DNA from: Candidatus Magasanikiibacteriota bacterium
Lineage (GTDB): Bacteria > Patescibacteriota > Patescibacteriia > Magasanikbacterales > GWA2-37-8
Assembly (NCBI GenBank): GCA_023246655.1
Contig: JAHFHX010000002.1
Location: 31,693 to 95,692 of the forward strand
Direction: 5' to 3'
DNA: 64,000 nt
This document shows, piece after piece, positions 13,109 through 58,937 of the stretch; the stretch's first letter is position 1; each line of letters opens with the position of its first letter. The notes beneath the pieces were generated by a model, which was given only the letters and a program-made list of their open reading frames with translations, searched no databases and had not been told where the DNA came from. The translations under genes and the position numbers were made by a program.

Positions 13109-13221
13109 TGTCATTGCGAGCGAAACGGAGAGTGAAGCGAAGCAATCTCCCTGTTTAAGTAATTCTCAAATCCAGGGGATTGCCACGTCGTTCGCCGCGA
13201 GGCTCACTCCTCGCAATGACA
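13109..13221. repeat. Family-A palindromic element (intergenic).
   Basis: gtcattgcgagcgaaacggag...gcaatctccc...ggggattgcc...ctcctcgcaatgaca. Confidence 0.7.
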
Positions 13222-26769: not shown

Positions 26770-26857
26770 ATGTCAAATAAAATTCAAAATCCAAAAATCA
26801 AATTTTGACATTTGAGTTTTGGGCTTGATTTGATATTTGTCATTTGGATTTTTGGAA

Positions 26858-32083: not shown

Positions 32084-32086
32084 ATT

Positions 32087-32514: not shown

Positions 32515-34358
32515 ATGATGAACCCCACATACATCCCCGCCATCCCCCACCACGGCACTTGGAATTGCACCGCTGACCACGGTTGGTTTCCAAACCATTC
32601 TACCACCATTATAACATATCGCAATCCAAAATAAGCGATCCAGGCGACGAGCTGGCCGAGCGGAAAAAAAATGAATCCAAAAATGATGGCGGTGAACCCG
32701 ATGAGCATGAGCCACGGTACCGTCCATAATATGAGAACGTTGACGAGTGGGGCGACGATGGAGAGGCGGCCGAATTGGTAGAGGATGATGGGGAGGGTGG
32801 CGAGGATGGCAGAGAGGGTTTGGAGGAGTGGTTCGCGGATGAAGTTCCATGCCGAATGAAACGCTTGTCCCACGTTGTCATTGCGAGGAGCGAACGAAGT
32901 GAGCGACGCGGCAATCTCCCCTTGGTGGTCATGATGGGGGGATTGCTTCGTCGTTTCACTCCTCGCAATGACAGATTCGAGCACCGGCGAAATATAAACG
33001 AGCCCCAGTGTCGCCAAAAATGATAATTGGAACCCCGCGTCCCACACCAGCACATACGGATTCGCGATGGTCATTACTGCGGCAGTAAAAACCAGCACGT
33101 TGCCAATGCGCGAGAGCCTGCCAAGCTGCTGCGCTGTGAGAACAAGAAAACCCATAATTCCCGCACGCACCACTGAACCAGTAGCGCCCGTAAAAATAAT
33201 GAATAAGATAATAAACCCAACCACCGCCCAATACGCGTGCTGACGCCAGAGGCCCAGACGGATGAGCATGAACATGAGCGCTGTTACGATGATGGTGATG
33301 TTAAAACCGGAGACAGCGATGATGTGCGAGACGCCGGTTTTATTAAAGTCGTCGATAATTTCTTTGGGTAAACCACTTTTGCTTCCATATAATAATCCTT
33401 GCATTAAACTACTTTCCGGTTCACTCCAGAGATTTTCGATTTTAGATTGTATGTGAGATTTGAGGAGGAAGATTTTTTTTATAACCCACACCTTAGGCGC
33501 CAAACTGTCATTGCGAGGAGGGAGCCTCGCGGCGACCGACGTGGCAATCTCCCCGTTTTGCTCTTGTCGGAGGGATTGCCGCGCTCGTTCCTCGCTCGCA
33601 ATGACAATTGACTTAGGAAAACTACACACCGCCCAAATCCCCTCTTTCGCCAAATATTTATCATACCTAAAACTACTCCCATCCAAATTCTCCGGCGCAC
33701 GCAGTTGGCAGTCAAATTTGATCTGGTCGCCGTAATTAAATGTAGGATATAACCGCGAGATGACGAGAACTTTCCCACTCACATCTTTAGCCAACTGCCC
33801 TTCTTTGATATTGGAAATTGAAACAACATATTTTGCATTCGTCATACTGGTGTCTGGTTCGGCCGTTATGACACCGGCCGCTTGGACATGTTTACCAACA
33901 TAATATTCAATTCGGTCTGGTGTGATGTTGGGAATGGTGATGACAAATCGCCAGACGCCGAGGAGAAGGGATAAGGAACAAAGAACAAGAAAACGGATCT
34001 TTGGTTTGTGCCAAAATAAAATAGCTGATGATATAAGGATAAAAAATGATATGTAGAGATAAAGAGATATTGATACAGCGAACGAAACCCCTCTCTCTGT
34101 CTCTCCCCTTATAGGGGAGAGTAGCGCTGTTGATTGGCTCCCTCCCCCTATAAGGGGGAGGACGGAGGAGGGGGTTTTCGCCACCCAATCACCCAGCGAC
34201 GCCACACCCGCCCCCGCCATAAAACAAAAACAAAACGCGAGGAACGTTTTGCTTTTTGAGTTTACCACGCGAGACATAAGGTCTTTTACGTGGGTGATAA
34301 TTTTTTGCAGACCCTCCCCTAGCATAATTTTACACTTCGATACTTTTTCCCTCCTCAA
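32442..34358 (-). CDS. comEC: Competence protein ComEC/Rec2 membrane channel (no MBL domain) with several in-frame repeat inserts.
   Basis: DUF4131-like N-terminus. Competence domain GVSHIIAVSGFNITIIVTALMF... Inserts are ASEERARQSLRQEQNGEIATSVAARLPPRNDS, ARSETTKQSPHHDHQGEIAASLTSFAPRNDN and a GC-rich one. The C-terminal tail is repeat-derived. Confidence 0.8.
   Translation of the reverse strand: MRREKVSKCKIMLGEGLQKIITHVKDLMSRVVNSKSKTFLAFCFCFMAGAGVASLGDWVAKTPSSVLPLIGGGSQSTALLSPIRGETERGVSFAVSISLYLYISFFILISSAILFWHKPKIRFLVLCSLSLLLGVWRFVITIPNITPDRIEYYVGKHVQAAGVITAEPDTSMTNAKYVVSISNIKEGQLAKDVSGKVLVISRLYPTFNYGDQIKFDCQLRAPENLDGSSFRYDKYLAKEGIWAVCSFPKSIVIASEERARQSLRQEQNGEIATSVAARLPPRNDSLAPKVWVIKKIFLLKSHIQSKIENLWSEPESSLMQGLLYGSKSGLPKEIIDDFNKTGVSHIIAVSGFNITIIVTALMFMLIRLGLWRQHAYWAVVGFIILFIIFTGATGSVVRAGIMGFLVLTAQQLGRLSRIGNVLVFTAAVMTIANPYVLVWDAGFQLSFLATLGLVYISPVLESVIARSETTKQSPHHDHQGEIAASLTSFAPRNDNVGQAFHSAWNFIREPLLQTLSAILATLPIILYQFGRLSIVAPLVNVLILWTVPWLMLIGFTAIIFGFIFFPLGQLVAWIAYFGLRYVIMVVEWFGNQPWSAVQFQVPWWGMAGMYVGFIIVIARRSKATTKQSPLCGKTNDRV
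32876..32974. repeat. Family-A element, in frame in comEC.
   Basis: gtcattgcgaggagcgaacgaagtgagcgacgcggcaatctcccc ttggtggtcatgatg gggggattgcttcgtcgtttcactcctcgcaatgaca. Confidence 0.75.
33506..33606. repeat. Family-A element, in frame in comEC.
   Basis: gtcattgcgaggagggagcctcgcgg...ggcaatctcccc...ggagggattgcc...ctcgctcgcaatgaca. Confidence 0.75.
34070..34200. repeat. Family-C GC-rich double-hairpin insert in comEC.
   Basis: CTCTCCCCttataGGGGAGAG ... CTCCCCCtataaGGGGGAG. Confidence 0.45.
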
Positions 34359-35384: not shown

Positions 35385-38300
35385 CTACACTACTATACTT
35401 ATTAATTTCCCCCTCACATAAATCACCTTCTTCGGCTCTTTACCATCCAGCCACTTCTGAATTTTTTCGCTCGCGAGCGCTTGGTTTTTAATTTCGTCTT
35501 CGGATATATCAGCTGGCACCTCAAGCTGCTCACGCACTTTGCCATTTACTTGAACAACAATGGTGATCATGGACTCTTTGGCGAGCTCGGGATCAAACTT
35601 TGGCCAAGGGGAATACGCTAATATCTCTTTATCTCCATATAACTCCCATAATTCCTCCGCAATATGTGGGGCAAAAGGTGAGAGAAGTTGAATTAATATT
35701 TGATATTGGATATTAGATATTTTTTCTTCTTTCATCATTTCATTCGTGAGTTCCATCAGCTTCGCAATGGCAGTATTAAAATGCATTGCTTCGATATCAT
35801 CGGAGACTTTTTTGATGGTTTGATGAAGAAGGGTCGTTATCTTGTCATTGCGAGGAGCCGAAGGCGACGCGGCAATCTCCCCTTTTGACTCTTGTCGGGG
35901 GGATTGCTTCGCTCGTTCCTCGCTCGCAATGACACGTTCTTGAAGTGACCATACCCGATCCAAAAATCTCCGCACGCCAACCAACCCATTCGTATCCCAC
36001 TTCACCGCCTGATCAAACGGCCCCATGAAACCAATATACGCGCGAAAAGCATCCGTACCAAATTGTTCAATCATTTCATCGGGGTTGATAACATTCCCGC
36101 GGCTCTTACTCATTTTCTCACCATCCGGACCCAAAATCATGCCATGACTGGTACGTTTTTTATATGGCTCGCGCGTAGGCACTACGCCAATGTCGTATAA
36201 AAATTGATTCCAGAAACGGGAATACAATAAGTGAAGCACCGTGTGTTCCATGCCGCCGTTATACCAATCAACACCACCCCCGCGTTTGTCATCCCGAGCG
36301 AGGCTCGCGCCGACGAGGGATCTCTGTCCGTCGGTTGGTGAGTGAGCCAGAGATTCCTCCTTCGTCGTCGGAGTGACAGGATTACCATCCATCCAGTACC
36401 GCAGCTTCTCCATTGATGCAAATTCTTTATCGTTATTCGGATCCGCGTATCTTAAGAAATACCAAGAAGAACCGGCCCAATTCGGCATAGTATCAGTTTC
36501 CCGTTTCGCTGGTCCGCCACAACGTGGGCAGGTGGTGTTCACCCAATCACTCATCGCCGAGAGCGGACTTTCGCCCGTGTCGGTTGGTTCGTATTTTTCT
36601 ACTTTGGGGAGTTTGAGTGGGAGTTCGGACTCGGGAAGCGGGATCCAGCCGGTTTGTTCTAATGCTTTGAGAATTTCTGGTTCCTGGCCATCATTGGTAA
36701 AATGTTGGGCAACTGGTTCCACGAATTGAGCTGAAGCGTGCATTGCTTTCATCATTTCTCGTGCCTGATTTTCTGGAATTACTGGAAAATTTTTATCAAC
36801 TACAAGCACAATTTCTTTCGCGTTTTTTTTAATTTTCTCAAAATTAAATTGCCAATTGAAACTTTGCTCAACTTCCGGTCGTGCGCGATCAGCAAATTCG
36901 GGACGAATAAAACAATCAACCAAAACAAGTTTCGCGATTGTTTTTTTTAAATGTTCTACCAAATTCATGGCTACAGCTCCACCAAGGCTCGTGGCAACAA
37001 TAACAGTGTTTTCGTTTATTTCTGTTTTTTCCAATACCGATTTTACTTGTTCCTCAATATTTGGCTGCATCGGGTTTGGGAGGTCTGGTGCAAATACCGT
37101 ATGACCTTGTTTTTCTAGTTCTTCTTTAAGCCGCGGGAAAAATATTCCTTGAGAGCTGCCTTTGAATCCATGAAGTAAAATATAGTTATATTTTTTCTTT
37201 CTGCAATTCTCACATTTTACGAGGGGAATCGGTTCGCCCCAGTAGCGCTGACGAGAGAAAACCCAATCGCGGAGTTTGAAATTAATCTGCCGACGAGCCA
37301 TTCCTTTTTGCTCTAACCAAGGTAAAATCTTTTCGCGCGCTTCCGCAGAAGTTAAACCATCAAACTGACCGGAGTTAACCAGAGTGCCTTCACTGGGGAA
37401 GCACTCTTCTAACTTTTGCACGCGCTCCCACAGCGCATCGTCGGCTGGTCGGATAGAAACTTTGAGCGGCAGGCTATATTTTTTAGCCATAGCAAAATCG
37501 CGCTCGTCGTGGGCATCGGCAAATACCGCGCCAGTGCCGTACTGAGCTAACACAAAATCGGCAATCCAAATAGGCATTTTGTCGCCGGTTGCTGGGTTCA
37601 GTGCATACGATCCGGTGAAGACCCCCGACTTGTCCTTTTCTTCAGCAGTACGTTCGATGTCAGTTTTTTGCGCAGTCTCCTGAACATATTTTTCAACCGC
37701 TTTTTTCTGTTCGGGAGTAGCTAATTGTTTTACGAGCGGGTGTTCAGGTGCAATGACTAAGAATGTACCCGAAAAAATGGTGTCGAGTCGGGTGGTGAAG
37801 ACTTCGATTGGTTGAGACAGGGATTCCTCGTCGGCGCGAGCCTCGCTCGGAATGACAGTAAAACGGACGACAGCCCCTTCCGAGCGCCCAATCCAATTTT
37901 CCTGTTGCACGCGCGCGGGAGTAATATAGTTAACTTCTTTGAGACCGTCGAGGAGTTTATCGGCATATTTGGTAATGGCAAGCATCCACTGCTCTTTATC
38001 TCGTTTTTCCACGGGCGTGCCACAACGTTCACAACAGCCGTCCACCACCTCTTCATTAGCGAGGCCAGTCTTATCTTTCGGACACCAATTAACAGGCTGA
38101 TTTTTTTTGTAAGCTAACCCGTGTTTATATAATTGTAAAAAAATCCACTGCGTCCATTTGTAATATGTGGGATCGGTGGTATCAACAGCGCGCGACCAAT
38201 CAAAACTATAGCCCAACGCTTTAAGCTGGCGGGTGAAATTGGCAATATTCTCGGCCGTAACTTCCGCGGGTGGGCGACCGGTTTTAATCGCAAAATTTTC

Positions 38301-44301: not shown

Positions 44302-44346
44302 TCCGGCTATCTTCCTGGTGGAAGAAAAGAGACAAGGAGACCCAAA

Positions 44347-44717
44347 TGAGCCGTTTCGCCAAGTTTCTCAGCCTTCTCTTCCGCGCCTTTCTCGCCCTCT
44401 TCTTGAAGGCAAAAGAAAGGCCGGTCCTCATCATCGGGTCGCGGTGCTGGCGCATGCACCCCCGGTGTTTCGGGATGCGCTTCCTCGCGCCGCTGTGCCG
44501 CAGCACCGCGGCTGGGCTCGCCGGCTACAGCGTGCAGGAGCAAGATCTGCCGGCGGGGGCAACGCAGCAACCCATCTTCAGCCTGGCTGGGTTCGCCTGG
44601 CAGGGAGACATCAGCGCTGTGCGGACTGTACTCCCGCACCTGCCGGAACAAATCCAGCACGACCTCGCCAAGCTCATGATGCAGCGGCTCGCCGTCGAGG
44701 CCTCGCCGATGCAGTAG
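44347..44717 (+). CDS. Hypothetical protein in a about 65% GC islet.
   Basis: SD plus ATG. 123 aa, MSRFAKFLSLLFRAFLALFLKAKERPVLIIG... Confidence 0.35.
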
Positions 44718-49192: not shown

Positions 49193-49224
49193 GCGAAGTT
49201 CTTAGTTCACAAAAAATTAAAAAC

Positions 49225-49252
49225 GATCCCGACTCAGTCGGGATCGTTTTCT
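49225..49252. terminator. Bidirectional terminator hairpin nested inside a 13-bp outer inverted repeat, between convergent hup genes.
   Basis: AACGATCCCGACTcaGTCGGGATCGTT, flanked by agttcttagttca ... tgaactaagaact. Confidence 0.65.
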
Positions 49253-49273
49253 GTCTACTATGAACTAAGAACT

Positions 49274-49555
49274 TTACAGTACTGCCTCTTTCGCGGCCTT
49301 AGCGACACGGAATTTTACCACTGTCTTAGCGGGAATCTGAATTGAGGCGCCAGTTGCCGGGTTACGCCCCATGCGAGCCGCGCGGTGTACTTTTACCAAT
49401 TTGCCAAGACCTGGCAATACAAACACACCACTCTTTTTTACTTCCTTGTACGCCATTTCGACAACGGCGTCCATGAATCCCCCTACGTCTTTTTTGCTCA
49501 TGCCAGTTTTTTCTGCGAGCGCAGAAACAACGGCTGATTTAGTCATACCTGCCAT
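49274..49555 (-). CDS. hup: HU-family DNA-binding protein (second paralog).
   Basis: MAGMTKSAVVSALAEKTGMSKKDVGGFMDAVVEM...VHRAARMGRNPATG. Confidence 0.9.
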   Translation of the reverse strand: MAGMTKSAVVSALAEKTGMSKKDVGGFMDAVVEMAYKEVKKSGVFVLPGLGKLVKVHRAARMGRNPATGASIQIPAKTVVKFRVAKAAKEAVL

Positions 49556-49719: not shown

Positions 49720-49860
49720 TGTCATCCCGAGGAGCCTTCCGCCAAAGGCGGACACAGCGCGAGGCCTGCCCGCCTCTGGCGGGAGGGATCTCTCTGTCCG
49801 TCGTTGGTTGATTGAGACAGAGATTCCTCACCCCCTGTGACGGGGGATTCGGAATGACAA
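49720..49860. repeat. Family-B palindromic element (intergenic, extended).
   Basis: gtcatcccgaggagccttccgccaaaggcggacacagcgcgaggcctgcccgcctctggcgggagggatctctctgtccgtcg...gacagagattcctc...ggaatgacaa. Confidence 0.7.
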
Positions 49861-49908: not shown

Positions 49909-50853
49909 ATGTCTGAAAAACTTTCTCAACCACAAATCAACATTTTCCGCCGTACTATCTACTCCTACTACAAAAAATATGGTCGTATTTTGCCGTGGCG
50001 CCAGACGCATGACCCCTACAAAATTATAGTCTCGGAAATTATGCTCCAACAAACGCAGGTGGACAGGGTGATTCCAAAATATGAACGCTGGATAAAAATC
50101 TTTCCTGATTTTCTTACCCTCGCCAAGGCACCGCTTAAAAAAATACTAAAAGAATGGCGGGGTTTGGGGTATAATCGGCGGGCGATTAATTTAAAAAGGT
50201 TGGCGGAAATTATTGTGAGGGCGTATATCAATACGCCCCTACCGAATGACCCAAAAATCCTCGAAACGCTTCCTGGCATTGGACCACACACCGCCGGCTC
50301 AATTGCGGCATTTGCGTTTAACCAACCAGTGACGTTTATTGAGACGAATATTCGGACAGTCTTTATCCACTATTTTTTTCAAAGCGGACGAGCAAATTCC
50401 CCCCTCGAGGGGGGTAGTGGGGGTGTAAGACTGTTGCGTGGCCGTTTGTCCAACGGTTCGCAACGCAAAGGACTTACACCCCCCGGTGAGCCCCCCTCGA
50501 GGGGGGATTTGGTGAGTGACGCTGACATTATGCCCCTCGTGGAGCAAACCCTGGACCGTAAAGATCCCCGCCGTTGGTATAATGCGCTGATGGACTATGG
50601 GGTATATCTAAAAAAACTTCATAAAAATCCCAGCCGCCGTAGTGCGCATTATATAAAACAAAGCAAATTTGAAGGGTCGAATCGGCAATTACGGGGGATG
50701 ATTTTAAAATGTTTAGTTACTCACAGAAAAATGACTATTCGAGAAATAACATCTGAGATATCTGGAGATAAGGAGATGGTGGAAAAAAATCTGCAGCAAC
50801 TAACTGCAGAAGGATTTTTAAAAATTACTGGAAAAAAATACCAACTAAGCTAG
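49909..50853 (+). CDS. HhH-GPD DNA glycosylase (MutY/Nth-like) lacking the 4Fe-4S Cys cluster, with an in-frame family-C insert.
   Basis: YKIIVSEIMLQQTQVDRVIPKYERWI...WRGLGYNRRA...LPGIGPHTAGSIAAFAF. No Cx6Cx2Cx5C cluster is present. Confidence 0.65.
   Translation: MSEKLSQPQINIFRRTIYSYYKKYGRILPWRQTHDPYKIIVSEIMLQQTQVDRVIPKYERWIKIFPDFLTLAKAPLKKILKEWRGLGYNRRAINLKRLAEIIVRAYINTPLPNDPKILETLPGIGPHTAGSIAAFAFNQPVTFIETNIRTVFIHYFFQSGRANSPLEGGSGGVRLLRGRLSNGSQRKGLTPPGEPPSRGDLVSDADIMPLVEQTLDRKDPRRWYNALMDYGVYLKKLHKNPSRRSAHYIKQSKFEGSNRQLRGMILKCLVTHRKMTIREITSEISGDKEMVEKNLQQLTAEGFLKITGKKYQLS
50395..50520. repeat. Family-C GC-rich palindromic insert (cccctcgagggg x2).
   Basis: ccCCCCTCGAGGGGggtagtggggg...ggtgagCCCCCCTCGAGGGGGGatt. 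Confidence 0.45.
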
Positions 50854-51857
50854 GCGATATGAGTGGTGGCTACATCTAAACCCAAGCGCTCTTCCAAATC
50901 ATACCGGCCATCGCCACCACCGAACATTTTGCCCTGAACAGCATCAAGGAAAAGTAAATAACGACGGGTCTCATCTTCAATTGAGAGCACTGTTGGACCA
51001 GCTAGCCGAAAATAGGGATTATGCAATTCTTTATCAGTTGCCGATAGGCGCCGGGAGTCTTCGTCAAATGCTTTCCAATGAGCCCGCAAGTGTGACGTAT
51101 CGGGTAGCTGGGAAGGTTCCCACCAAAAAGGAACGAGCAGATTGATATCGGCTTCGGCTTGAACGGCGTCGAGTGCTTCAAGCGTGCCGCGTTCAGCGGC
51201 ACGTTCTGTCACTTGCTCAGGGAGATCAAGTAATTCATATGCTCGATCAGGCGGTAATGATGGCAAATGTGGCAGAGCTCTCCGGATAGCCGCAACGGCA
51301 GGGGCAAGTTCCTCGTAAGGTTTGCCGCGAGCGTCCTCGGCGGACCAGTCATAATAGGTGGAAATAAGCGGGCGCCAGTTAAGCTCGCGGAACTGCTGTC
51401 CATGTCGCAGTTCATGCAAAAGATATGCTATCTCGAGCGGAGATTTTAATGGCGGAATAACAATTTCATCCCGGGGAGATTCACCCCATCCGGTTTGCTC
51501 TACAAGCGCATCGATAATTATTGAAATGTTATTGTGGTTAAACCTTTGCAAAAGATCATAAGTTTTAAAAGTCTGTGAATGAACCAACACCACAGCATCA
51601 AGTTGATGACCTTCATAGTGCCCAAGCGCTGGATCGTTTGATTCTACTGGAGTCGGCTCCTCCCGAATATCAACCATGGCCTGACAAATTGGTTCTCCGG
51701 TGTCGCGACGATATTCTCGTAGCTCTCGCCAACAGCGATACTCTTTACCTCGCTCGCCTTTGATTATAAGCTCTTTTTGAATCGGTTCTAAAGAAAAATC
51801 TCGTCGACTCGACTCATGGTGAAATAGGGCGGCCTGTTCGGCCATGCGGGAAGACAT
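50850..51857 (-). CDS. Hypothetical protein with an HExxHxxQ zincin-like motif.
   Basis: EIAYLLHELRHGQQF. About 55% GC. Confidence 0.4.
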   Translation of the reverse strand: MSSRMAEQAALFHHESSRRDFSLEPIQKELIIKGERGKEYRCWRELREYRRDTGEPICQAMVDIREEPTPVESNDPALGHYEGHQLDAVVLVHSQTFKTYDLLQRFNHNNISIIIDALVEQTGWGESPRDEIVIPPLKSPLEIAYLLHELRHGQQFRELNWRPLISTYYDWSAEDARGKPYEELAPAVAAIRRALPHLPSLPPDRAYELLDLPEQVTERAAERGTLEALDAVQAEADINLLVPFWWEPSQLPDTSHLRAHWKAFDEDSRRLSATDKELHNPYFRLAGPTVLSIEDETRRYLLFLDAVQGKMFGGGDGRYDLEERLGLDVATTHIA

Positions 51858-52051
51858 ATGAATAAATAATTTATGCAGCAGCTAAAAGACTTGAACTATT
51901 AAATCATAGAAATTATTTTCTGTAAATAAATCAAATCTTTCTTGACGATTGACTTTATTCTTAGATACGGTATACTATGGGCTATCAAATAATTTAAATT
52001 TTGGATATTATATTAGACATTAAAAATTAGTATCTTGAATTCTTTAACTAT

Positions 52052-52123
52052 GGCCCCATCGTCTAGTGGCTAGGACACCACGCTTTCAATGTGGTAACAC
52101 GAGTTCGATTCTCGTTGGGGCTA
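52052..52123 (+). tRNA. tRNA-Glu (anticodon TTC).
   Basis: GGCCCCATCGTCTAGTGG...anticodon loop CTTTCAA...GGTTCGATTCTCGTTGGGGCTA. The cloverleaf can be folded by eye. Confidence 0.85.
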
Positions 52124-52130
52124 CGAGTAT

Positions 52131-52160
52131 TAAAAAATAGCTAAAGATTAGCTATTTTTT
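52131..52160 (+). terminator. Intrinsic terminator after tRNA-Glu.
   Basis: aaaaaATAGCTAaagatTAGCTATttttt. Confidence 0.55.
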
Positions 52161-52190
52161 AGATTTTGCGAATTTATTTTAATCAATTAG

Positions 52191-53180
52191 CTAACTGCGT
52201 TTTTTTAATTTATCAAAAAATGGGAAATAATGTTTTTCCAAAATCGTAAATACCCATTCATAAAATTCTTCAATTATATTTTTACCACTTGGCCCATTAA
52301 TTGCTAAGGCAGGGCAGCCGGTGGTAACGTCATGCTGAAAAGCCGATGCTTTCAAGGCGGCGAGAACATCTTTATTAATATGAAGTGCAAATGTTGGATG
52401 ACCCTGCCGATCGGTGGTGGTTAAATGAAACTGCCTAAAATCATACTCTTGTCTTTGCTGTTTATCTCGCACCAACATTGTTTCTAACTTTATAAACGTA
52501 TTAATAAACATTGACGCCATTATAATGATCATCCGTCGGCTTTCCAACATTATCGCCCTGGCTTCAGCTGCACTAATGGTTTGTGGATGAAATGCTTCCC
52601 GATATACAGCGGGTATAACCTTGGCAATACCAAGCACTACATTGGTTGCAGTACCAATGCCATTAAATATATGCTCGGCAGGCGAATCAGTTGTACTACC
52701 AGCCAAGTTCCGTTCTCTAATAAAATCCATTAAAGCACCGAATTGTTTGTTTCTTAGAACCTCGTTGCCAGGTACATCAGGTTGAACTGATTGAGATAAT
52801 GATTGCTCACGCTTATGTTGCCAGTTTTGTATTTTCTCTAGCAAAAAATTGTTAATGTCGCCCTCTATTTCTGCTAGAATGTCTTCGGGATACTTTTTAT
52901 CTTCAAAGTCTGCATCTGTCGCTGCGGTGAATATCAGCCCTTGTCCTTCGACAATTCTGCGTACTGGTAATGCCCCGTTATGTTCTCTTATCCACGGTGC
53001 AACTTCTTGCTGCCAGGCTTCGGCTATAAAAATAGCGGTCAAAGCCATAAAGTCGCTTTTATTATCAGCTACCTCAGCACCAGCTGCAAGTTCGTGTACC
53101 CGTGTCCGCAAATTTACTTGGGAACCAATTTCTTTTGTATGAAGAAGACTTCTAATTGTGTCCATACTGTTTGAATTCAT
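52191..53180 (-). CDS. Hypothetical protein (tRNA-bracketed island).
   Basis: 329-aa ORF with no motif recognised. Confidence 0.4.
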   Translation of the reverse strand: MNSNSMDTIRSLLHTKEIGSQVNLRTRVHELAAGAEVADNKSDFMALTAIFIAEAWQQEVAPWIREHNGALPVRRIVEGQGLIFTAATDADFEDKKYPEDILAEIEGDINNFLLEKIQNWQHKREQSLSQSVQPDVPGNEVLRNKQFGALMDFIRERNLAGSTTDSPAEHIFNGIGTATNVVLGIAKVIPAVYREAFHPQTISAAEARAIMLESRRMIIIMASMFINTFIKLETMLVRDKQQRQEYDFRQFHLTTTDRQGHPTFALHINKDVLAALKASAFQHDVTTGCPALAINGPSGKNIIEEFYEWVFTILEKHYFPFFDKLKKRS

Positions 53181-53318
53181 TGCTCATAGTCTAAAGACAA
53201 TAGGAATAATTGTCAACTATCTTAAATTTAAAAAAATCAAACCTATGCTTGCTTTAAATCTTGTTTTATTTTACAATACTCTCAATACAAAATTTTTTTA
53301 AATTAACCACCCACCACT

Positions 53319-54455
53319 ATGGCTGAAGGACGACCGAGAGTTTTTTCGGACATTCCGCGTTGGGCAACCGATGATGTCGAGGAACAAGAAAAATTTTTTC
53401 CCGATGAACCAGCACTTGAAGGCCCGCCAAAAAGTGCCGAGGAATCTTTATTTTTATCGATCCCGGAATTAAGCTATGCTGCTGATATTGTGGTAGCCCT
53501 GAATGCCGCCGAGGGAGCCGCAGAAAAAGCAGCTGTTATCCACCGAACCGTTCAGGATTTTCTAGAAGATCCGCGCCGATTAAGCGATTTTTTTGATGCG
53601 GTTAAGACCTTGCAGGATAGTAAGAAATATCATGGTGCAAAACGAGCGGCAGGCGATATAAAGAAAGCCCTACCTGATGCTTTGTTCGAAACCTTTCCGC
53701 CTTCAACTGCTGCGCTGGAACGCTGGATTACGCTGTATGCCGAGAGTGATGTATACCAAGGGACAGCTGAAAAAATTCTCCATAAGGCAATGGATGCCTG
53801 TGGCAATGTGGAGGCAATGGCGACACTGTGTTATGAATTAGCTTTAGCTGGCCTTAGAAGCAGTAATGACAAGGTGGTTAAAAAGACTTTACAAATTTTA
53901 GGACAATTAACACCAGCGCTTCCCGCTGCCTCAAAAGCAGCAGTTTTATTTGAGTTGGCTAAATTGTCTCCTCATGAAAGCACGTTCTTAAAATTACGAG
54001 AAATTGACGCAGCAGTAGCTGATGTCAGTGCACGCAAAGACCCTAGCATGCGAGGGCGGATAGATGCAGCGGTGGGCAGAACGCAGCGACACCCTGATTA
54101 TAGAACAGAAGTGCAAAAGTTAACAACAACTAACCCTACGTGGGTAGCGGGTATACGTGCTTTTCAGAAAATGCTCGTACGGGGTCCGGCAGAAATGGCA
54201 ACAAAAATTCAAGCAATGCACGACACCTTGAGTGCCGGAGAGGCCTCTGCAGAAGTTGCTGCCGCGATGGATTCACCAGCTGCGCCAGTGCTTGAAGCCT
54301 TGGCTCGGCGTTCTGGACCTCTTAAACGATGGCATGATGATTTATTAGCTGAGTCGCTCCAGACAGAGGGAGTACAGGTGGTTAGCCTCCACTTACCAAA
54401 TTTACACGGTATAATTCCGGCAGAACGTAGAACTTGTTGCTGCTACTATTATTGA
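53319..54455 (+). CDS. Hypothetical Ala-rich helical protein ending in CCCYYY.
   Basis: 378-aa ORF with a C-terminal RTCCCYYY. Confidence 0.4.
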   Translation: MAEGRPRVFSDIPRWATDDVEEQEKFFPDEPALEGPPKSAEESLFLSIPELSYAADIVVALNAAEGAAEKAAVIHRTVQDFLEDPRRLSDFFDAVKTLQDSKKYHGAKRAAGDIKKALPDALFETFPPSTAALERWITLYAESDVYQGTAEKILHKAMDACGNVEAMATLCYELALAGLRSSNDKVVKKTLQILGQLTPALPAASKAAVLFELAKLSPHESTFLKLREIDAAVADVSARKDPSMRGRIDAAVGRTQRHPDYRTEVQKLTTTNPTWVAGIRAFQKMLVRGPAEMATKIQAMHDTLSAGEASAEVAAAMDSPAAPVLEALARRSGPLKRWHDDLLAESLQTEGVQVVSLHLPNLHGIIPAERRTCCCYYY

Positions 54456-54492
54456 TTCCTTAGAGAGCACACCAGAAGAAGGTGCTGCCCCT

Positions 54493-55212
54493 TTGCGTGA
54501 AGCGGGTTACTGGCGAACACTTGGGCACCTTGTGCCTGAAGCAATGGTAGACCCAGACAAAGCCCGCGAAATACGTGACCAACTCCGTTTGGATAATGAG
54601 CGACTCATCCAAGAAATGCGTGATGACTCAATTCATTTTCTGAGTCCGCGTGGTGACCAGATTGATTTTTCTGACCCCATCCTTGCGGACCTGGGATTTA
54701 AAGGCATAACTTTTGAAATGGACCCACGGAACCGTCGTGACACCATTGTTAGTTTAAATGTTGGGAATTTTACTTACCAAGCAGTGCTGGATGAATATTT
54801 TGCTTTGCGTGAAACTGGCCCCGAAGGACGTAGTGTTGTTTTACCAGATGATGGTGAACTATTGCGAAATATTCTCTTAAGCCATCTACATGCCATCCGT
54901 TGCACCGACACAGTTAAAGATACGGAAGCAGCTTTGCCTGGCGAATCAGGGGAACGATCTTTTCGTGGTCGTCGCGCTCATCGACGTATTTTGGCAGAAG
55001 GCTATTCCCCTACCCGTGCCCAAATACTTCTCATTTTAAGAGACTACGATATTGATTTAAACCGTTGGAATGAAGAACGTGCTCGACAAGGAAAAGAGAG
55101 AAGGGTTACCTATGTTAAAGAATCTGAGGCAGATACTAACCAGGGTGCTCCGGTACGCTCGGTAGCTCCGCAAGCCACTAATAAGCTGCGCGCAATTTTA
55201 ACAGCAACTTGA
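54493..55212 (+). CDS. Hypothetical protein.
   Basis: 239-aa ORF. Confidence 0.4.
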   Translation: MREAGYWRTLGHLVPEAMVDPDKAREIRDQLRLDNERLIQEMRDDSIHFLSPRGDQIDFSDPILADLGFKGITFEMDPRNRRDTIVSLNVGNFTYQAVLDEYFALRETGPEGRSVVLPDDGELLRNILLSHLHAIRCTDTVKDTEAALPGESGERSFRGRRAHRRILAEGYSPTRAQILLILRDYDIDLNRWNEERARQGKERRVTYVKESEADTNQGAPVRSVAPQATNKLRAILTAT

Positions 55213-55254
55213 ATGGGTTCGGAATAATGAAGGCTGCTACCAACAAACACAGAA

Positions 55255-55322
55255 AAAACAAAACCACCCGTGTCTCCTACATGAGTATCCAAATACTTAG
55301 ATACTCATGTAGGGTGTGGGTG
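55255..55322. terminator. Long hairpin between convergent genes.
   Basis: aaccacccgtgtcTCCTACATGAGTATCcaaatacttaGATACTCATGTAGGgtgtgggtggtt. It shares the tgtagggtg.gggtggtt motif with 44895-44925. Confidence 0.55.
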
Positions 55323-55395
55323 GTTTTGTTAAACCAGCGCTGCTGACAACGCGGGTGTAGGCAGTTGCTTGCTAAGCTCTCTGGTCCTTTGGACC

Positions 55396-55773
55396 TCAAT
55401 TGCCTCCGCCTCCTTCCTGGCGCCACACCTCGTAGCGCTCCCAGCGGGCGGCCGACATCACCTCGGGCTCGTGCTCCGAGGTTTCCGGGAACTCGCCGGC
55501 CGTGAGCATCTCGAGGGTGGGCTCGAGCTCCTGCTCGAACCGATAGCGGGTGGCCAGCTCCCGCAGCTGACTGAGCGAAAAGAGGATGCACGCTCCCAGC
55601 GGGGCCCGGGTATGGGCCGCACCGACGATGAGCGGCTCTCCGCCTTCCCCGGTTGCCACCACCTGTCCGCTCCACAGGCCGCGGAAGATGGCAACAACTA
55701 CCTCGGAGCCGTTGATGACTACCCAATCAACGGCGCAGACCGTTTCCCAATGCGACGGGATTTTGCCCTGCAT
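55396..55773 (-). CDS. Hypothetical protein in a about 62% GC islet.
   Basis: AGGAGAccacgATG. 125 aa, MQGKIPSHWETVCAVDWVVINGSEVVV... Confidence 0.35.
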   Translation of the reverse strand: MQGKIPSHWETVCAVDWVVINGSEVVVAIFRGLWSGQVVATGEGGEPLIVGAAHTRAPLGACILFSLSQLRELATRYRFEQELEPTLEMLTAGEFPETSEHEPEVMSAARWERYEVWRQEGGGGN

Positions 55774-55944
55774 CGTGGTCTCCTTTCTCCCGAACAATGC
55801 GGGTATAAGGTAGTAGACCATGTTTTAACTCTCTGGTCAAACTGCTATGACCCAATTTAGGAATCACAATTATCTTGCTTTTTATCGGTAAATTTTGTAG
55901 AATGGGATCTTGGAGAAGTTCGTAATACATTATTTGTTTTCACT

Positions 55945-56769
55945 ATGGATTCAGAAGATAAGCGGCGTGCTGCCGAGGCGGCGGCGGAGCAGGAAAATGC
56001 CAAACGTTCGGTTGAGTTAAATCGCGCCGCGCTGGTAGCTTTATTTGCCGAACGACCGAGTATATTTATACGAGCAGTTGATACGGCAAATAGTACTCGT
56101 GGGCAAGTGCAGTTACTCTCTAACAATTCCTTGGTCTTTATTGCTGAAAATGGCGGCACAACCGACATCGCCAACGCTCCACCTGATCGGTTTATTTTAA
56201 CCTCTGATTCTTACAAGTTGATCGATCCTAGATTCAGGCAACAAGAAGCAAACCTGGTAGAAGACAAATTTCCAAACCCTCTCCTGCAAAAACGACCAGG
56301 ACCCGAACTTGTAGAATTATGGGAGGCCGGAGAAGATTTTTCAGTAGCTGGAATTCTTACTGGACCTCCAGCAGCTGAAGGCCGGGAACGAAAACGGCCG
56401 CGGGATATCTTTCAGCAGGAGCTTACGGCAGCCTTTAGAGCGGGAATTGGGAGGTGGTCGTCATCGAAAAAATCCTATTCACTTTCTTGCTCCGATCCCC
56501 ACCATCTTGCCCGATTGGCGGAAAAAGCTAACCTCACTGTTGTTAGAATTCCAATCTCACAATTTGGTGAAATAGAATTCCTTACTGATGGCAATTACTT
56601 TATTGGAAATGCTCTTGATAGATCCGGACGCAATGATATTCGGCACATACTTAGCCAACATGATTCTACAAGAATCCGTGGCGGAATTGGTGGTTTAGTT
56701 TTTGATTTTCACAACGATCGTCTTATTGTGGTAAATGGTGAAAAAGCTTTAGAATTACAACAGAAGTAG
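55945..56769 (+). CDS. Hypothetical protein.
   Basis: 274-aa ORF. Confidence 0.4.
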   Translation: MDSEDKRRAAEAAAEQENAKRSVELNRAALVALFAERPSIFIRAVDTANSTRGQVQLLSNNSLVFIAENGGTTDIANAPPDRFILTSDSYKLIDPRFRQQEANLVEDKFPNPLLQKRPGPELVELWEAGEDFSVAGILTGPPAAEGRERKRPRDIFQQELTAAFRAGIGRWSSSKKSYSLSCSDPHHLARLAEKANLTVVRIPISQFGEIEFLTDGNYFIGNALDRSGRNDIRHILSQHDSTRIRGGIGGLVFDFHNDRLIVVNGEKALELQQK

Positions 56770-56837
56770 ACAATTAAATTGCAGATTGACTTTACTTTTC
56801 TTTTTAGATATCATTCTGGCTAACCGAAATACTATAC

Positions 56838-56911
56838 GTCAGGGTAGCTCAGACGGTTAGAGCGTAGCATTCATAACGCTAAGGTCGAGGGTTCAACTCC
56901 CTCCCCTGACA
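56838..56911 (+). tRNA. tRNA-Met (anticodon CAT, elongator-type; possibly Ile2-lysidine).
   Basis: GTCAGGGTAGCTCAGACGGTTAGAGCG...loop TTCATAA...GGTTCAACTCCCTCCCCTGACA. G1-C72 are paired, and there is no GGG/CCC run in the anticodon stem. Confidence 0.8.
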
Positions 56912-57304
56912 CACGGACGACGCCCAACTTTCGGCGTTGTGGACAACCAATTTGACCGGAATTTATACATAATATAAAATTAATTTAGTTCTTTCACAGT
57001 TTACTATCATGAGCGGTGCGAGGGAATCGGCCCTAAGACCACCCAGCAACCCCAGCTAAGTTTGGGGTGCTAATTCCGACCCTAAAAATAGGATAGGGAA
57101 AGATACGTCCCAATGCAGCTGTTGGAAATTGGCTTACATAAAGGCTCGTAACTCTTCCATCATTTTGGGGTTAGGAGCCTTTTTTGTTTTTAGCGAAAGA
57201 TATAGCACAGTAAATTGGCCGGACGATTGAATGACTTACTATAAGTTATACAACCGTCCGGGCAAAGCTGTTCAACCAAGCCCCGGATAGGATGGAGACC
57301 AGCG

Positions 57305-57496
57305 ATGGTCAGGCGTACCCCCGAGGAGATCGATAAGATCTCCGCCCCCAGCCTCAATTACAACCGCTTCACCACGGAGGAGGATGCCCGGCGCAATCGC
57401 GCCCGGCTCCCGCCGGACCATCCGCTCTATGAGCCCCTCCCGCCTGATGAGGCGTTGCGGGCTCTCTCCCCCACCCGCCCCCGCGCTTGCGCCTAG
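57305..57496 (+). CDS. Hypothetical 63-aa ORF in a about 65% GC islet.
   Basis: GGATGGAGaccagcgATG. Followed by a long hairpin. Confidence 0.3.
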   Translation: MVRRTPEEIDKISAPSLNYNRFTTEEDARRNRARLPPDHPLYEPLPPDEALRALSPTRPRACA

Positions 57497-57542
57497 CACC
57501 CCCAACCCTACTCTTGCGTTCCAAACTCGTAGGAGAGGCCGA

Positions 57543-57606
57543 GACGAGACCGCATCCCAGCTTATGTATTTAAATTTTTAAATACATAAGCTGCGGTCTC
57601 GTTAAT
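57543..57606 (+). terminator. Long imperfect hairpin terminator.
   Basis: gaccgcatcccagcttatgtatttaaa/tttaaatacataagctgcggtc. Confidence 0.5.
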
Positions 57607-57644
57607 TGGGCGCTCTACATCTGCCTACATAAGGCATTTTTTGT

Positions 57645-58937
57645 TTGCAAAAAAAAGATAAATCATGTAACGTGGAACACATGGCGTGTAAACTTACCGA
57701 CAGGTTCCACGTTTCACCTTATACGCTACATAATATGCTCGTTCTCGGTATCGAATCCTCTTGTGATGACACTTCCGTTGCCCTCGTCGACTGCTCCGAT
57801 CGAGGTCATGTTATTATTGCGGAAAAAATGGCGTCACAAATTGATATCCACACAAAATATGGCGGCGTAGTGCCAGAAATTGCCGGCCGGATGCATGCGG
57901 AAAAAATTGTGCCGCTCATTGAGGAGGTGATGAACGAGGGAAATAAGGAAATAAAGAAACAAGGAAATAGTGAGACAGTGGATAAACTAATTCATCCCGA
58001 CGTCATCGCTGTCACCGCCGGGCCGGGGCTCATCACGGGGCTCATTGTTGGGGTGGAGGCAGCGCGGACATTGTCGTATGCTTGGAATATCCCTCTGATT
58101 GCAGTGAACCATATTGAAGGACACATCCACAGCGTGGAAATTTCAAATAACAAATTCCAAATATCTTCCTTTCAATCAGGAAATGCAAATAAAATCCAAA
58201 ATCCAAAATCCAAAAACGATTCGTCTGCTCCCTACTCCCTACTCCCTACTCCCTTAATTGACTTCCCTGCCCTTTGCCTCGTAGTGAGTGGTGGTCACAC
58301 GGAATTAATTTCGATGAAAGATCATGGCGACTACAAAATTCTGGGGAGCACTAAAGATGATGCAGCAGGAGAATGTTTTGATAAGGTGGCTAAGTTACTA
58401 GGTCTCCCCTACCCTGGTGGACCGCAAATTTCACGGCTGGCAATGAGCGGGCGCACTGATGCGATTAATTTTCCGCGACCGATGCTTAAAGAAAAAAATT
58501 TTGATTTTAGTTTCGCTGGACTCAAAACTGCTGCCCTTTATTGGCTACGTGATAATGCGCAAACAGATTCTTCCACCTACCACCTACCACCTACCGGCCT
58601 AGCAGATTTCTGTGCTAGTTTTGAACAAGCTATTGTCGATGTATTAGTTGGTAAAGCCCTGCGCGCAGCTGAGGAAATTAAACCCAAAACGATTATCCTT
58701 GCCGGCGGCGTCGCCGCGAATAAAAAACTTCGCGAAACTCTCGGAGCACATATTCAATATCGTAATTCGGACGAACAGCCGTTTGCCCCTATAATCTACC
58801 TCTTACCAACTACCTCCTACGCCATGGACAACGGCGCAATGATTGCGGTGGCTGGATACTATCATGCCATCAAAAAAGAATTTACTGATTGGGATAAAAT
58901 TACGGTTGATCCAAATTGGAAAATAGAAAAATTATAA
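57645..58937 (+). CDS. tsaD: tRNA N6-adenosine threonylcarbamoyltransferase TsaD with low-complexity inserts.
   Basis: LVLGIESSCDDTSVALV...AVNHIEGHIHS...GGVAANKKLRE. Confidence 0.9.
   Translation: MQKKDKSCNVEHMACKLTDRFHVSPYTLHNMLVLGIESSCDDTSVALVDCSDRGHVIIAEKMASQIDIHTKYGGVVPEIAGRMHAEKIVPLIEEVMNEGNKEIKKQGNSETVDKLIHPDVIAVTAGPGLITGLIVGVEAARTLSYAWNIPLIAVNHIEGHIHSVEISNNKFQISSFQSGNANKIQNPKSKNDSSAPYSLLPTPLIDFPALCLVVSGGHTELISMKDHGDYKILGSTKDDAAGECFDKVAKLLGLPYPGGPQISRLAMSGRTDAINFPRPMLKEKNFDFSFAGLKTAALYWLRDNAQTDSSTYHLPPTGLADFCASFEQAIVDVLVGKALRAAEEIKPKTIILAGGVAANKKLRETLGAHIQYRNSDEQPFAPIIYLLPTTSYAMDNGAMIAVAGYYHAIKKEFTDWDKITVDPNWKIEKL
58191..58253 (+). repeat. Two adjacent 7-bp x3 tandem repeats (aaaatcc x3, then ctcccta x3) inside tsaD.
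   Basis: aaaatccaaaatccaaaatcc...ctccctactccctactccctactccc. The third array ccaccta x3 is at 58574-58596. Confidence 0.7.

What the first reader, a model, noticed from the sequence alone, without database searches (positions are those of the whole stretch)
50850..57610. Block of hypothetical genes of atypical composition bracketed by tRNA-Glu and tRNA-Met
From 50850 to 57610, genes 50850-51857, 52191-53180, 53319-54455, 54493-55212, 55396-55773, 55945-56769 and 57305-57496 are all of unknown function and about 50-65% GC versus about 42% nearby. They are interrupted or flanked by tRNA-Glu (52052-52123) and tRNA-Met (56838-56911), with long hairpins at 55255 and 57543. tRNA-flanked blocks of orphan genes are classic integration hot-spots or genomic islands. 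No integrase is visible. One product carries an HExxHxxQ zincin-like motif (LLHELRHGQQF), a signature of DUF4157-type effector or toxin-associated metallopeptidases. One ends in CCCYYY.
Basis: partly seen in the sequence, partly recalled or inferred. Interest (0 to 1): 0.6.

Follow-up and report, generated by a model that had tools for sequence, protein, structure and literature searches.

The report
Variable tRNA-flanked orphan-gene region, CPR bacterium
This is a fast-changing stretch around two tRNA genes in an uncultured Magasanikbacteria (CPR) genome, holding species-specific orphan genes, a likely new zinc protease and an overlooked SAM riboswitch; it is a plasticity zone, not a discrete mobile island.

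Summary
The seven ORFs, both tRNAs, both long hairpins, the HELRHGQQ motif and the CCCYYY tail are all present. The composition claim is mostly wrong. The window is 45% GC, and five ORFs (40-49% GC) have median codon usage. Only 55396-55773 (66%) and 57305-57496 (68%) are atypical.

The genome is a Candidatus Magasanikbacteria. In 80 relatives, tRNA-Glu and tRNA-Met sit just upstream of tsaD. The gap between them ranges from 95 bp to 8.1 kb, with unrelated cargo. That cargo includes a serine recombinase and an IS3 transposase. So the hot-spot idea is supported. A discrete island is not: the window has no integrase and no att repeats.

ORF 50850-51857 is inherited in synteny with its neighbour. 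It belongs to an unmodelled HExxHxxQ...ERDA family, weakly related to DUF6782 and not to DUF4157.

ORFs C and E have no homolog among 5.8 billion protein clusters. B, D and F had only limited searches, which found nothing.

It sits upstream of the 63-aa GC-rich gene. In two relatives the same riboswitch precedes a SAM-hydrolase-like gene, and in one of them the leader is also conserved.

Overall this is ordinary in kind, with modest novelty in the details.

The parts
50850..51857 (-). ORF A, 335 aa: putative zinc metallopeptidase of an unmodelled HExxHxxQ...ERDA family. It is lineage-restricted but inherited in synteny with its neighbour.
   Evidence: Weak DUF6782 match (19.7 bits, cutoff 27). 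Three homologs in the word-indexed search and 71 in the profile search. H148, E149, H152, E218 and A221 are invariant in 46 sequences. AF2 model has pLDDT 86.4. The convergent 4-bp overlap with HhH-GPD is conserved in L085.
51949..51976 (+). Promoter-like site upstream of tRNA-Glu (TTGACT-16-TATACT). It resembles the site before tRNA-Met.
   Evidence: direct repeat D2, 51942-51962 / 56779-56799.
52052..52124 (+). tRNA-Glu (UUC), a conserved anchor of the backbone.
52131..52161 (+). Perfect 14-bp hairpin followed by a T run: terminator of tRNA-Glu.
52191..53180 (-). ORF B, 329 aa: orphan gene of native composition with no SD; probably a leaderless mRNA.
   Evidence: No family hit. No relative found in the loci, JGI metagenomes, phages, plasmids or PDB.
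53319..54455 (+). ORF C, 378 aa: orphan gene ending in RRTCCCYYY.
   Evidence: It finds only itself among 5.8 billion clusters. No family or PDB hit.
54493..55212 (+). ORF D, 239 aa from TTG (or 222 aa from ATG 54544): orphan gene, co-directional with C.
55257..55330 (.). About 29-bp hairpin flanked by A and T runs: bidirectional intrinsic terminator between convergent D and E.
   Evidence: z -9.7 and -9.2 on the two strands.
55396..55773 (-). ORF E, 125 aa: GC-rich (66%, GC3 0.80) orphan gene with a strong SD (AGGAGACC). It looks foreign in type.
   Evidence: The same D-E-F junctions appear in three independent assemblies. The AF2 single-sequence model is unusable (pLDDT 47.7).
55945..56769 (+). 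ORF F, 274 aa: orphan gene of native composition, divergent from E.
56838..56912 (+). tRNA-Met (CAU) with its promoter-like site at 56786-56814. In relatives this tRNA lies directly upstream of tsaD.
57002..57109 (+). SAM-I riboswitch aptamer. Its promoter-like site is at 56952-56980.
   Evidence: RF00162, 57.9 bits against a gathering score of 44.4. Homologous aptamers in L005, L028, L009 and L053.
57140..57192 (+). Riboswitch expression platform: an intrinsic terminator, with a competing anti-terminator that pairs 57096-57107 with 57144-57155.
57229..57304 (+). Leader conserved with L005 and L003. It holds the stem-loop CCGGG...CCCGG (57258-57290) and the SD GGAG.
57305..57496 (+). ORF G, 63 aa: GC-rich (68%, GC3 0.83) small Pro/Arg-rich protein with core motif ARxNRAxLPPDHPLYEP.
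   Evidence: Positional homologs in L002 and L003. In the conserved core, 4 of 5 DNA differences are synonymous.
57539..57645 (+). Long hairpin (57539-57603) plus a short hairpin and T run (57622-57645): terminators that separate G from tsaD.
57735..58937 (+). tsaD from its real start: the conserved downstream anchor of the region.

Best explanation
The region is a composite plasticity zone. It lies on a conserved Magasanikbacteria backbone: RNase Y, HU, tRNA-Glu, tRNA-Met, tsaD, prs. It has four layers.

(1) Gene A is an older, lineage-restricted gene inherited together with its HhH-GPD neighbour. It most likely encodes a zinc metallopeptidase of an undescribed family, with HExxHxxQ on one helix and an invariant Glu in an ERDA motif on a later helix.

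(2) B, C, D and F are species-specific orphan genes. They have native codon usage and native-style SD-less starts, and they fill the tRNA-Glu to tRNA-Met gap.

(3) E and G are self-contained foreign-type units: high GC, GC3 of about 0.8, a strong Shine-Dalgarno sequence, and their own strong terminator.

(4) G is transcribed behind a SAM-I OFF riboswitch, so its expression should fall when SAM is abundant.

Shown: the anatomy, the conservation patterns and the variability among relatives.

Inferred: that cargo is gained and lost by recombination at the tRNA-proximal spot; that mobility genes have since been lost here; that A is catalytically active; and that the riboswitch controls G.
For: Backbone and variability:
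- Eighty tsaD loci from relatives show the tRNA-Glu/tRNA-Met/tsaD anchor.
- The Glu-Met gap ranges from 95 bp to 8097 bp, and tRNA-Met usually lies 0-100 bp from tsaD.
- Cargo in that gap differs between relatives: serine recombinase, DsbA-like, NHL-repeat protein, TrmB, radical SAM, MetK, ECF sigma, IS3 transposase.
- tblastn at E <= 1e-3 found none of A-G in those 80 loci. A relaxed search then found G homologs in L002 and L003.

Gene A:
- The homolog on L085 (52% identity) keeps the 4-bp convergent overlap with an HhH-GPD homolog (55% identity). The homolog P0002 lies next to an HU gene.
- The motifs are conserved across 46 family members.
- PDZ domains occur in 17 of the 46 members.
- The AF2 model is confident, with pLDDT 86.

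B, C, D, F:
- GC and codon usage are native.
- They lack an SD, like native genes.
- C has no homolog anywhere in the large protein collection.

E and G:
- Their composition is atypical.
- Each carries an SD, as do all five high-GC3 ORFs in the window.
- Across 81 sequences a 5-mer SD precedes GC-rich ORFs far more often than other ORFs (odds ratio 9, p = 1e-6).
- E has the same junctions in three independent assemblies.
- G shows synonymous-site divergence against its L002 homolog.

Riboswitch:
- It scores above the Rfam gathering score.
- It has a terminator and a competing anti-terminator.
- The aptamer-terminator-leader-SD unit is homologous in L005, where it precedes a SAM_HAT-like gene.
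- L053 shows the same riboswitch-HAT pairing.
Against: - The nearest available genomes share only 60-65% TsaD identity. The time and direction of gains versus losses therefore cannot be resolved.
- For B, D and F only limited homology searches were possible, so distant relatives elsewhere are not excluded.
- Gene A's fold has no significant Foldseek match in the PDB or in BFVD.
- A's two closest homologs carry HELxGH, a one-residue insertion in the metal-binding motif.
- A weak promoter-like sequence lies between the riboswitch terminator and G, and L003 has a G homolog without a riboswitch. G may therefore be only partly riboswitch-dependent.
- The G and SAM_HAT-like families stay GC-rich in genomes that diverged long ago. 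Simple recent transfer does not explain this.
Confidence: 0.6

Rival explanations
1. One reading: the block is one discrete genomic island or integrative element that inserted into a tRNA gene, bringing foreign cargo that may include a toxin-type metallopeptidase.
For: The genes flank or lie between two tRNA genes. B-F are absent from all 80 relatives' loci. The closest relative has a large serine recombinase abutting its tRNA-Glu. Two ORFs are strongly GC-rich.
Against: The window has no integrase or other mobility gene. There is no repeat of either tRNA 3' end and no other flanking direct repeat. Five of the seven genes are compositionally native. Gene A is conserved in synteny with its housekeeping neighbour. 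There are no hits to phage, plasmid or viral collections. The genes form at least five separate transcription units in both orientations.
Confidence: 0.1
2. Nothing was inserted. B-F are old native genes of this lineage that evolve too fast to be recognised and were lost in the sampled relatives. Their orphan status would reflect sparse sampling of this clade.
For: B, C, D and F have native GC, codon usage and SD-less starts. Gene A shows that lineage-restricted genes here can be vertically inherited. The nearest reference genomes are distant, at 60-65% TsaD identity.
Against: Many relatives have the two tRNAs only 95-250 bp apart, and others carry completely different cargo. C and E find nothing but themselves among 5.8 billion clusters. 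E and G are clearly not native in composition.
Confidence: 0.2
3. The genes form one functional module around the metallopeptidase, such as an anti-phage defence system or a toxin/effector set with immunity proteins.
For: A metallopeptidase-like gene lies next to several small unknown genes, and variable tRNA-proximal regions often hold defence genes (established general knowledge). There is no direct tool support.
Against: PADLOC gave no hit for any ORF. A is separated from the others by a tRNA gene and is conserved without them in relatives. There are no paralogs and no shared domains among A-G. No signal peptide or transmembrane segment is apparent.
Confidence: 0.05
4. The GC-rich segments (E and G) are assembly chimeras or contaminating DNA from a high-GC organism.
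For: There are sharp jumps from about 45% to 66-68% GC over a few hundred bases.
Against: The D-E-F junctions are identical in three independent assemblies: two ENA assemblies and one Logan assembly. G has positional homologs that are also GC-rich in two other MAGs from other studies. The GC-rich ORFs are embedded between AT-rich promoters and terminators.
Confidence: 0.02

Closest known systems
tRNA-proximal genomic islands and regions of genomic plasticity, including the genomic islands reported in groundwater Patescibacteria (PMC12455944)
   Same: The location is next to tRNA genes. Presence and content vary among relatives. The cargo is rich in genes of unknown function. Recombinase or transposase genes occupy the same spot in some relatives.
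   Different: This copy has no integrase and no att repeats. Most of it is compositionally native. It is a mosaic of independent transcription units of different ages, not one element.
DUF6782 (PF20573) putative metallopeptidases, and zincin HExxH peptidases in general
   Same: An HExxH motif lies on a predicted helix, and a conserved Glu lies on a later helix, as in gluzincins. PDZ domains are present in many relatives. Fifteen of 46 family members match DUF6782 weakly.
   Different: Scores are below the Pfam gathering cutoff (19.7 against 27 bits). The N-terminal long-stranded beta sheet and the overall model have no significant match in the PDB. The ERDA motif lies about 66 residues after HExxH. 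No activity is known.
   Same: The short motif HExxHxxQ. The resemblance rests on my memory of the family's motif.
   Different: Neither A at E <= 0.1 nor any of 46 family members at E <= 0.01 matches the model. There is no toxin, eCIS or secretion context.
SAM-I (S-box) riboswitch, RF00162
   Same: A full-length aptamer scores above the gathering score. It has an intrinsic terminator and a competing anti-terminator, which is the classical transcriptional OFF design.
   Different: The gene behind it is not a Met/Cys/SAM biosynthesis or transport gene. It is a 63-aa orphan protein. In relatives the riboswitch precedes a SAM hydroxide adenosyltransferase-like gene or other small GC-rich ORFs.

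Membership tests
tRNA-integrated genomic island / integrative element | Integrase or recombinase gene at one end | tested here: not met
   No recombinase, transposase or phage family hit for any ORF between 49.9 and 57.7 kb. One is present in relative L002.
tRNA-integrated genomic island / integrative element | Direct repeat of the tRNA 3' end (attL/attR) bounding the element | tested here: not met
   The 21-nt 3' ends of both tRNAs occur once each, allowing up to 3 mismatches. The only direct repeat of note is the pair of tRNA promoter regions.
tRNA-integrated genomic island / integrative element | Composition unlike the host genome | tested here: not met
   A, B, C, D and F are 40-49% GC against a window mean of 45%, and their codon-usage distance is at the window median. 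Only E and G deviate.
tRNA-integrated genomic island / integrative element | Absent from the same site in related genomes | tested here: met
   B-F are absent from 80 tsaD loci, and the Glu-Met gap is as short as 95 bp. The relatives are distant, A is conserved in two metagenomic relatives, and G has positional homologs in L002 and L003.
DUF4157 (PF13699) | Match to the Pfam model | tested here: not met
   Not listed for A at E <= 0.1, nor for any of 46 family members at E <= 0.01.
DUF6782 (PF20573) | Match at or above the gathering score (27 bits) | tested here: not met
   A scores 19.7 bits, E = 5.4e-4. A's closest homologs P0002 and P0003 do not match at all. Fifteen of 46 relatives match weakly, best E = 2.5e-4.
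Zincin (HExxH) metallopeptidases | Conserved HExxH on a helix | tested here: met
   H148, E149 and H152 are invariant in 46 sequences and Q155 is present in 45. The motif lies in predicted helix 140-157. Two members have HExxxH.
Zincin (HExxH) metallopeptidases | Third metal ligand on a downstream helix (the Glu of gluzincins) | tested here: inconclusive
   E218 in the ERDA motif is invariant and lies in predicted helix 203-236.
Zincin (HExxH) metallopeptidases | Zincin fold similarity to solved structures | tested here: inconclusive
SAM-I riboswitch (RF00162) | Covariance-model score above the gathering score, full length | tested here: met
   57.9 bits against 44.4, model positions 1-108 of 108.
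SAM-I riboswitch (RF00162) | Expression platform (terminator and anti-terminator) | tested here: met
   Terminator at 57140-57192 with a U run. The alternative pairing of 57096-57107 with 57144-57155 gives -13 kcal/mol as a duplex and -17.3 as a hairpin.
SAM-I riboswitch (RF00162) | Controls a gene of sulfur or SAM metabolism | tested here: not met
   In the window the next gene is the 63-aa orphan G. In L005 and L053 it is a SAM_HAT-like gene that matches PF20257 below the cutoff.

The most novel reading that the evidence does not exclude
Magasanikbacteria carry a distinct class of GC-rich (GC3 0.7-0.87), strong-SD, terminator-bounded mini-genes, in genomes that are otherwise about 45% GC and largely lack SD sequences. 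These genes would come from, or be maintained by, an unrecognised high-GC gene pool or a gene-specific process.

One family of this class is G, a 54-63-aa Pro/Arg-rich protein with motif RxNRAxLPPDHP. It occupies the slot of a SAM-riboswitch-controlled SAM-cleaving enzyme. It could be a new SAM-responsive small protein involved in SAM or adenosine salvage in these auxotrophic symbionts.
Probability: 0.15. Interest if true: 0.55.

Novelty: new member of a known kind. Interest (0 to 1): 0.33.

Why it matters
The region gives a concrete, anchored example of how streamlined CPR genomes turn over genes: at a fixed tRNA-Glu/tRNA-Met/tsaD spot.

It defines a roughly 70-member HExxHxxQ...ERDA family of putative metallopeptidases that no Pfam model captures.

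It flags SAM-I riboswitches in Magasanikbacteria that precede unconventional targets. In this window the target is a 63-aa orphan protein, and in relatives it is a SAM-hydrolase-like enzyme.

None of this overturns current understanding. The riboswitch targets and the class of GC-rich, SD-bearing genes are cheap to follow up.

Tried and rejected
- **Profile libraries.** Pfam, NCBIfam, PHROGs and PADLOC scans of all seven ORFs gave only the sub-threshold DUF6782 hit for A.
- **PDB sequence searches.** The A-family profile found only coiled-coil noise. B, C, D and F found nothing.
- **Structure of E.** AlphaFold on the single sequence gave pLDDT 47.7, which is unusable.
- **att sites.** Neither tRNA 3' end is duplicated. 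The recombinase-bearing relative L002 also has no clear att repeats.
- **Collection scans.** JGI metagenome scans for B and for the G family found nothing. IMG/VR scans for D and F found nothing. tblastn of concatenated B-G against phage and plasmid collections found nothing.
- **G as a remnant.** I tested whether G is a decayed piece of the SAM_HAT-like gene seen in L005. Beyond the shared leader there is no similarity. G also shows synonymous-site divergence against its L002 homolog. Rejected.
- **Hairpins as attC sites.** I considered whether the long hairpins are integron attC-like sites. They lack the R'/R'' cores, are flanked by A and T runs, and lie between convergent genes, so I read them as terminators (direct reading).
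- **Shared origin of the block genes.** There are no paralogs among A-G or elsewhere in the window.
- **Literature.** Searches for Magasanikbacteria plus riboswitch, DUF6782, and SAM_HAT or DUF62 plus riboswitch returned nothing.

Full report
**1. What is in the sequence**

All seven ORFs exist as listed. I call them:
- A: 50850-51857, minus strand
- B: 52191-53180, minus strand
- C: 53319-54455, plus strand
- D: 54493-55212, plus strand
- E: 55396-55773, minus strand
- F: 55945-56769, plus strand
- G: 57305-57496, plus strand

tRNA-Glu(UUC) at 52052-52124 and tRNA-Met(CAU) at 56838-56912 are confirmed by ARAGORN and Rfam. The two long hairpins are real and highly stable. The one at 55257-55330 folds at -43 to -46 kcal/mol (z about -9.5). 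The one at 57539-57603 has z -8.7. The first sits between convergent D and E and is flanked by A and T runs. The second follows G and is itself followed by a short hairpin with a T run. I read both as intrinsic terminators.

The composition statement does not hold. The window is 45.2% GC. A, B, C, D and F are 49, 40, 48, 47 and 46% GC. Their synonymous-codon distance from the rest of the window is 0.16-0.21, against a window median of 0.18. Only E (66% GC, GC1-3 0.69/0.48/0.80) and G (68% GC, 0.67/0.55/0.83) are outliers. GC-rich patches of this kind are scattered over the whole window.

**2. Organism and backbone**

A scan with the TsaD protein returned 80 loci. All that carry a meaningful name are Candidatus Magasanikbacteria or Patescibacteria MAGs. 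The best have only 60-65% TsaD identity.

Mapping the window's proteins and tRNAs on these loci shows a conserved backbone: RNase Y, HU, tRNA-Glu, tRNA-Met, tsaD, sometimes prs, then a 1200-aa protein.
- tRNA-Met normally ends 0-100 bp before tsaD.
- Where both tRNAs lie on the fetched DNA, the gap between them takes these values (bp): 95, 103, 106, 107, 161, 244, 426, 478, 649, 722, 949, 1089, 1297, 3632, 3979, 4280, 5757, 5927, 7005, 8097.
- The window's gap is 4.7 kb.

Cargo in the long gaps differs from genome to genome:
- a large serine recombinase (Resolvase + Recombinase + Zn ribbon) abutting tRNA-Glu, plus a DsbA-like protein, in the closest relative L002
- an IS3-type transposase (HTH_Tnp_1 + rve) in L040
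- an NHL-repeat protein in L024
- TrmB and a radical-SAM protein in L038
- MetK in L062
- ECF sigma factors in L062 and L067

tblastn at E <= 1e-3 found none of A-G in any of the 80 loci. So the tRNA neighbourhood is a variable spot.

**3. Gene A**

A overlaps the convergent HhH-GPD glycosylase gene by 4 bp. The word-indexed search found three homologs.
- P0003, on contig L085, is 52% identical. It shows the same 4-bp convergent overlap with an HhH-GPD homolog that is 55% identical.
- P0002, 56% identical, lies next to an HU gene.

A has therefore diverged in step with its housekeeping neighbour and is not a recent insertion. L005, however, has HhH-GPD followed directly by tRNA-Glu with no A, so its distribution is patchy.

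A profile search of 1.84 billion representatives found 71 relatives of 300-600 aa. In an alignment of 46 of them:
- H148, E149, H152, E218 and A221 are invariant.
- Q155, R219 and D220 are nearly invariant.
- This gives the signature LLHELxHxxQ ... LPTxxxERDAxRxAL.
- Seventeen members carry PDZ domains, and 15 weakly match DUF6782.
- None matches DUF4157.

With this alignment AlphaFold gives a confident model (pLDDT 86.4, pTM 0.86). It has a long-stranded N-terminal beta sheet. HExxH lies on helix 140-157 and E218 on helix 203-236. Foldseek finds no significant match in the PDB or BFVD.

I conclude that A is most likely a zinc metallopeptidase of an unmodelled family distantly related to DUF6782. 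The caveat is that its two closest homologs have HELxGH instead of HExxH.

**4. Genes B, C, D and F**

These are long ORFs with normal coding periodicity, native codon usage and SD-less starts like those of native genes. B appears leaderless: a TTGACA-17-TAGACT promoter ends 7 nt before its ATG.

No library gives any assignment. C finds only itself among 5.8 billion clusters. At 90% identity each protein forms a one-member cluster. B is not found in JGI metagenomes. D and F are not found in IMG/VR. None of B-G is found in phage or plasmid records or in the PDB. They share no similarity with each other or with anything else in the window. They have no obvious signal peptide or membrane segment.

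Their function cannot be derived. The CCCYYY tail of C cannot be tested for conservation.

**5. Genes E and G**

Both have the GC3 > GC1 > GC2 periodicity of genuine coding sequence shaped under high-GC bias. Both have a strong SD: aAGGAGACCacgATG for E and tGGAGACCagcgATG for G.

In this window all five ORFs with GC3 >= 0.74 carry such an SD: the SDR gene 5129-5935, 30864-31298, 44346-44717, E and G. Only about six of the other 54 ORFs have even a 4-mer SD. Across the 81 Magasanikbacteria sequences, a 5-mer SD precedes 15 of 22 GC-rich ORFs against 228 of 1194 others (odds ratio 9, p = 1e-6).

E is a strict orphan. It is not an assembly artefact, because the same D-E-F junctions occur in three independent assemblies.

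G has positional homologs between tRNA-Met and tsaD in L002 (core 72% identical over 25 aa) and L003. In the conserved core, 4 of 5 nucleotide differences are synonymous third positions. G is therefore a real small-protein gene. Its homologs are also GC-rich, with GC3 of 0.87 and 0.76 in genomes of 47-49% GC.

**6. The riboswitch**

A full-length SAM-I aptamer lies at 57002-57109. It sits behind a promoter-like site at 56952-56980. An intrinsic terminator follows at 57140-57192. An alternative pairing of 57096-57107 with the 5' strand of the terminator can form. This is the standard OFF design.

Homologous aptamers occur in L005, L028 and L009, in each case between tRNA-Met and tsaD or just upstream of tsaD, and also in L053.
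- In L005 and L053 the riboswitch precedes a GC-rich SAM hydroxide adenosyltransferase-like gene. Its match to PF20257 is below the cutoff.
- The L005 leader after the terminator is conserved with the window: a CCGGACG...CGTCCGG stem, a CCGGG...CCCGG stem-loop and the SD. G's ATG aligns with the likely start of the L005 gene.
- L028 and L009 have other small GC-rich ORFs in that position.
- L003 has a G homolog with the same 5' stem-loop but a plain promoter instead of the riboswitch.

tsaD has its own promoter-like sequence, conserved among relatives, and is separated from G by two hairpins. I infer that the riboswitch controls G and not tsaD. This is inference only.

**7. Test of the island hypothesis**

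The region fails on three hallmarks. It has no integrase. It has no att repeats. Most of it has no compositional deviation. It passes on variability among relatives. It consists of at least five separate transcription units in both orientations, and these are of different ages. A is old, B-F are species-specific, and the G family is shared within a subclade.

The best description is a plasticity zone on a conserved backbone, not a single mobile element. Genomic islands and frequent gene exchange have been reported for groundwater Patescibacteria (PMC12455944). L002 appears to come from the same New Zealand groundwater collection, judging by its isolate name. The kind of feature is therefore known.

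**8. Verdict**

The feature is a new example of a known kind. It has three details of modest novelty:
- an undescribed HExxHxxQ...ERDA family
- SAM-I riboswitches in front of unconventional targets
- a class of GC-rich, SD-bearing genes in an otherwise SD-poor genome

Noticed in passing
window 5129-5935, 30864-31298, 44346-44717, 55396-55773, 57305-57496: All five ORFs with GC3 >= 0.74 carry a strong Shine-Dalgarno sequence (AGGAG / GGAGACC). Most native genes in this 45%-GC genome have none and look leaderless. The same bias holds across 81 Magasanikbacteria sequences (15 of 22 against 228 of 1194, p = 1e-6).
   Followed up: partly
window 50398-50511, inside the HhH-GPD gene 49909-50853: A 38-aa in-frame insertion that is GC-rich and palindromic. 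It is absent from the homolog on L085. It resembles the in-frame palindromic-element insertions known from Rickettsia.
   Followed up: partly
window, more than 10 copies, e.g. 563-605, 2837-2890, 13167-13221, 32086-32123, 33506-33606, 35865-35934, 49732-49860: A family of GC-rich palindromic REP/MITE-like repeats (TGTCATTGCGAGG...GGCAATCTCCCC). Some copies lie inside ORFs, and two lie just upstream of the HhH-GPD gene.
   Followed up: no
window 58125-58216 (inside tsaD) and 26734-26797: An AT-rich repeat (AAATTCCAAATA...AATCCAAAATCCAAAAA) is inserted in frame in tsaD and recurs in another gene. In addition, the tsaD ORF as listed starts at 57645, but the real start is ATG 57735.
   Followed up: partly
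L005 2453-3623; L053 19053-20104: A SAM-I OFF riboswitch directly precedes a GC-rich SAM hydroxide adenosyltransferase-like gene in two Magasanikbacteria. Repressing a SAM-cleaving enzyme when SAM is high is counter-intuitive. It hints that the enzyme may run in the SAM-forming or salvage direction.
   Followed up: partly
L002 355-1848 (minus strand), next to tRNA-Glu at 321-393: In the closest relative, a large serine recombinase gene abuts or overlaps the tRNA-Glu gene and is followed by GC-rich orphan ORFs. No att repeats were found.
   Followed up: partly
L035, L052, L061, L074 (prs paralogs); L037, L043: GC-rich copies of PRPP synthetase, and a second GC-rich family shared by L037 and L043, recur in different Magasanikbacteria. 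From a partial sequence I guess the second family is purine-nucleoside-phosphorylase-like; no family search was run on it. This suggests that nucleotide-salvage genes are part of the GC-rich gene class.
   Followed up: no
window 49196-49274: A palindrome with 39-nt arms lies between the two convergent HU genes. It is probably a bidirectional terminator.
   Followed up: no
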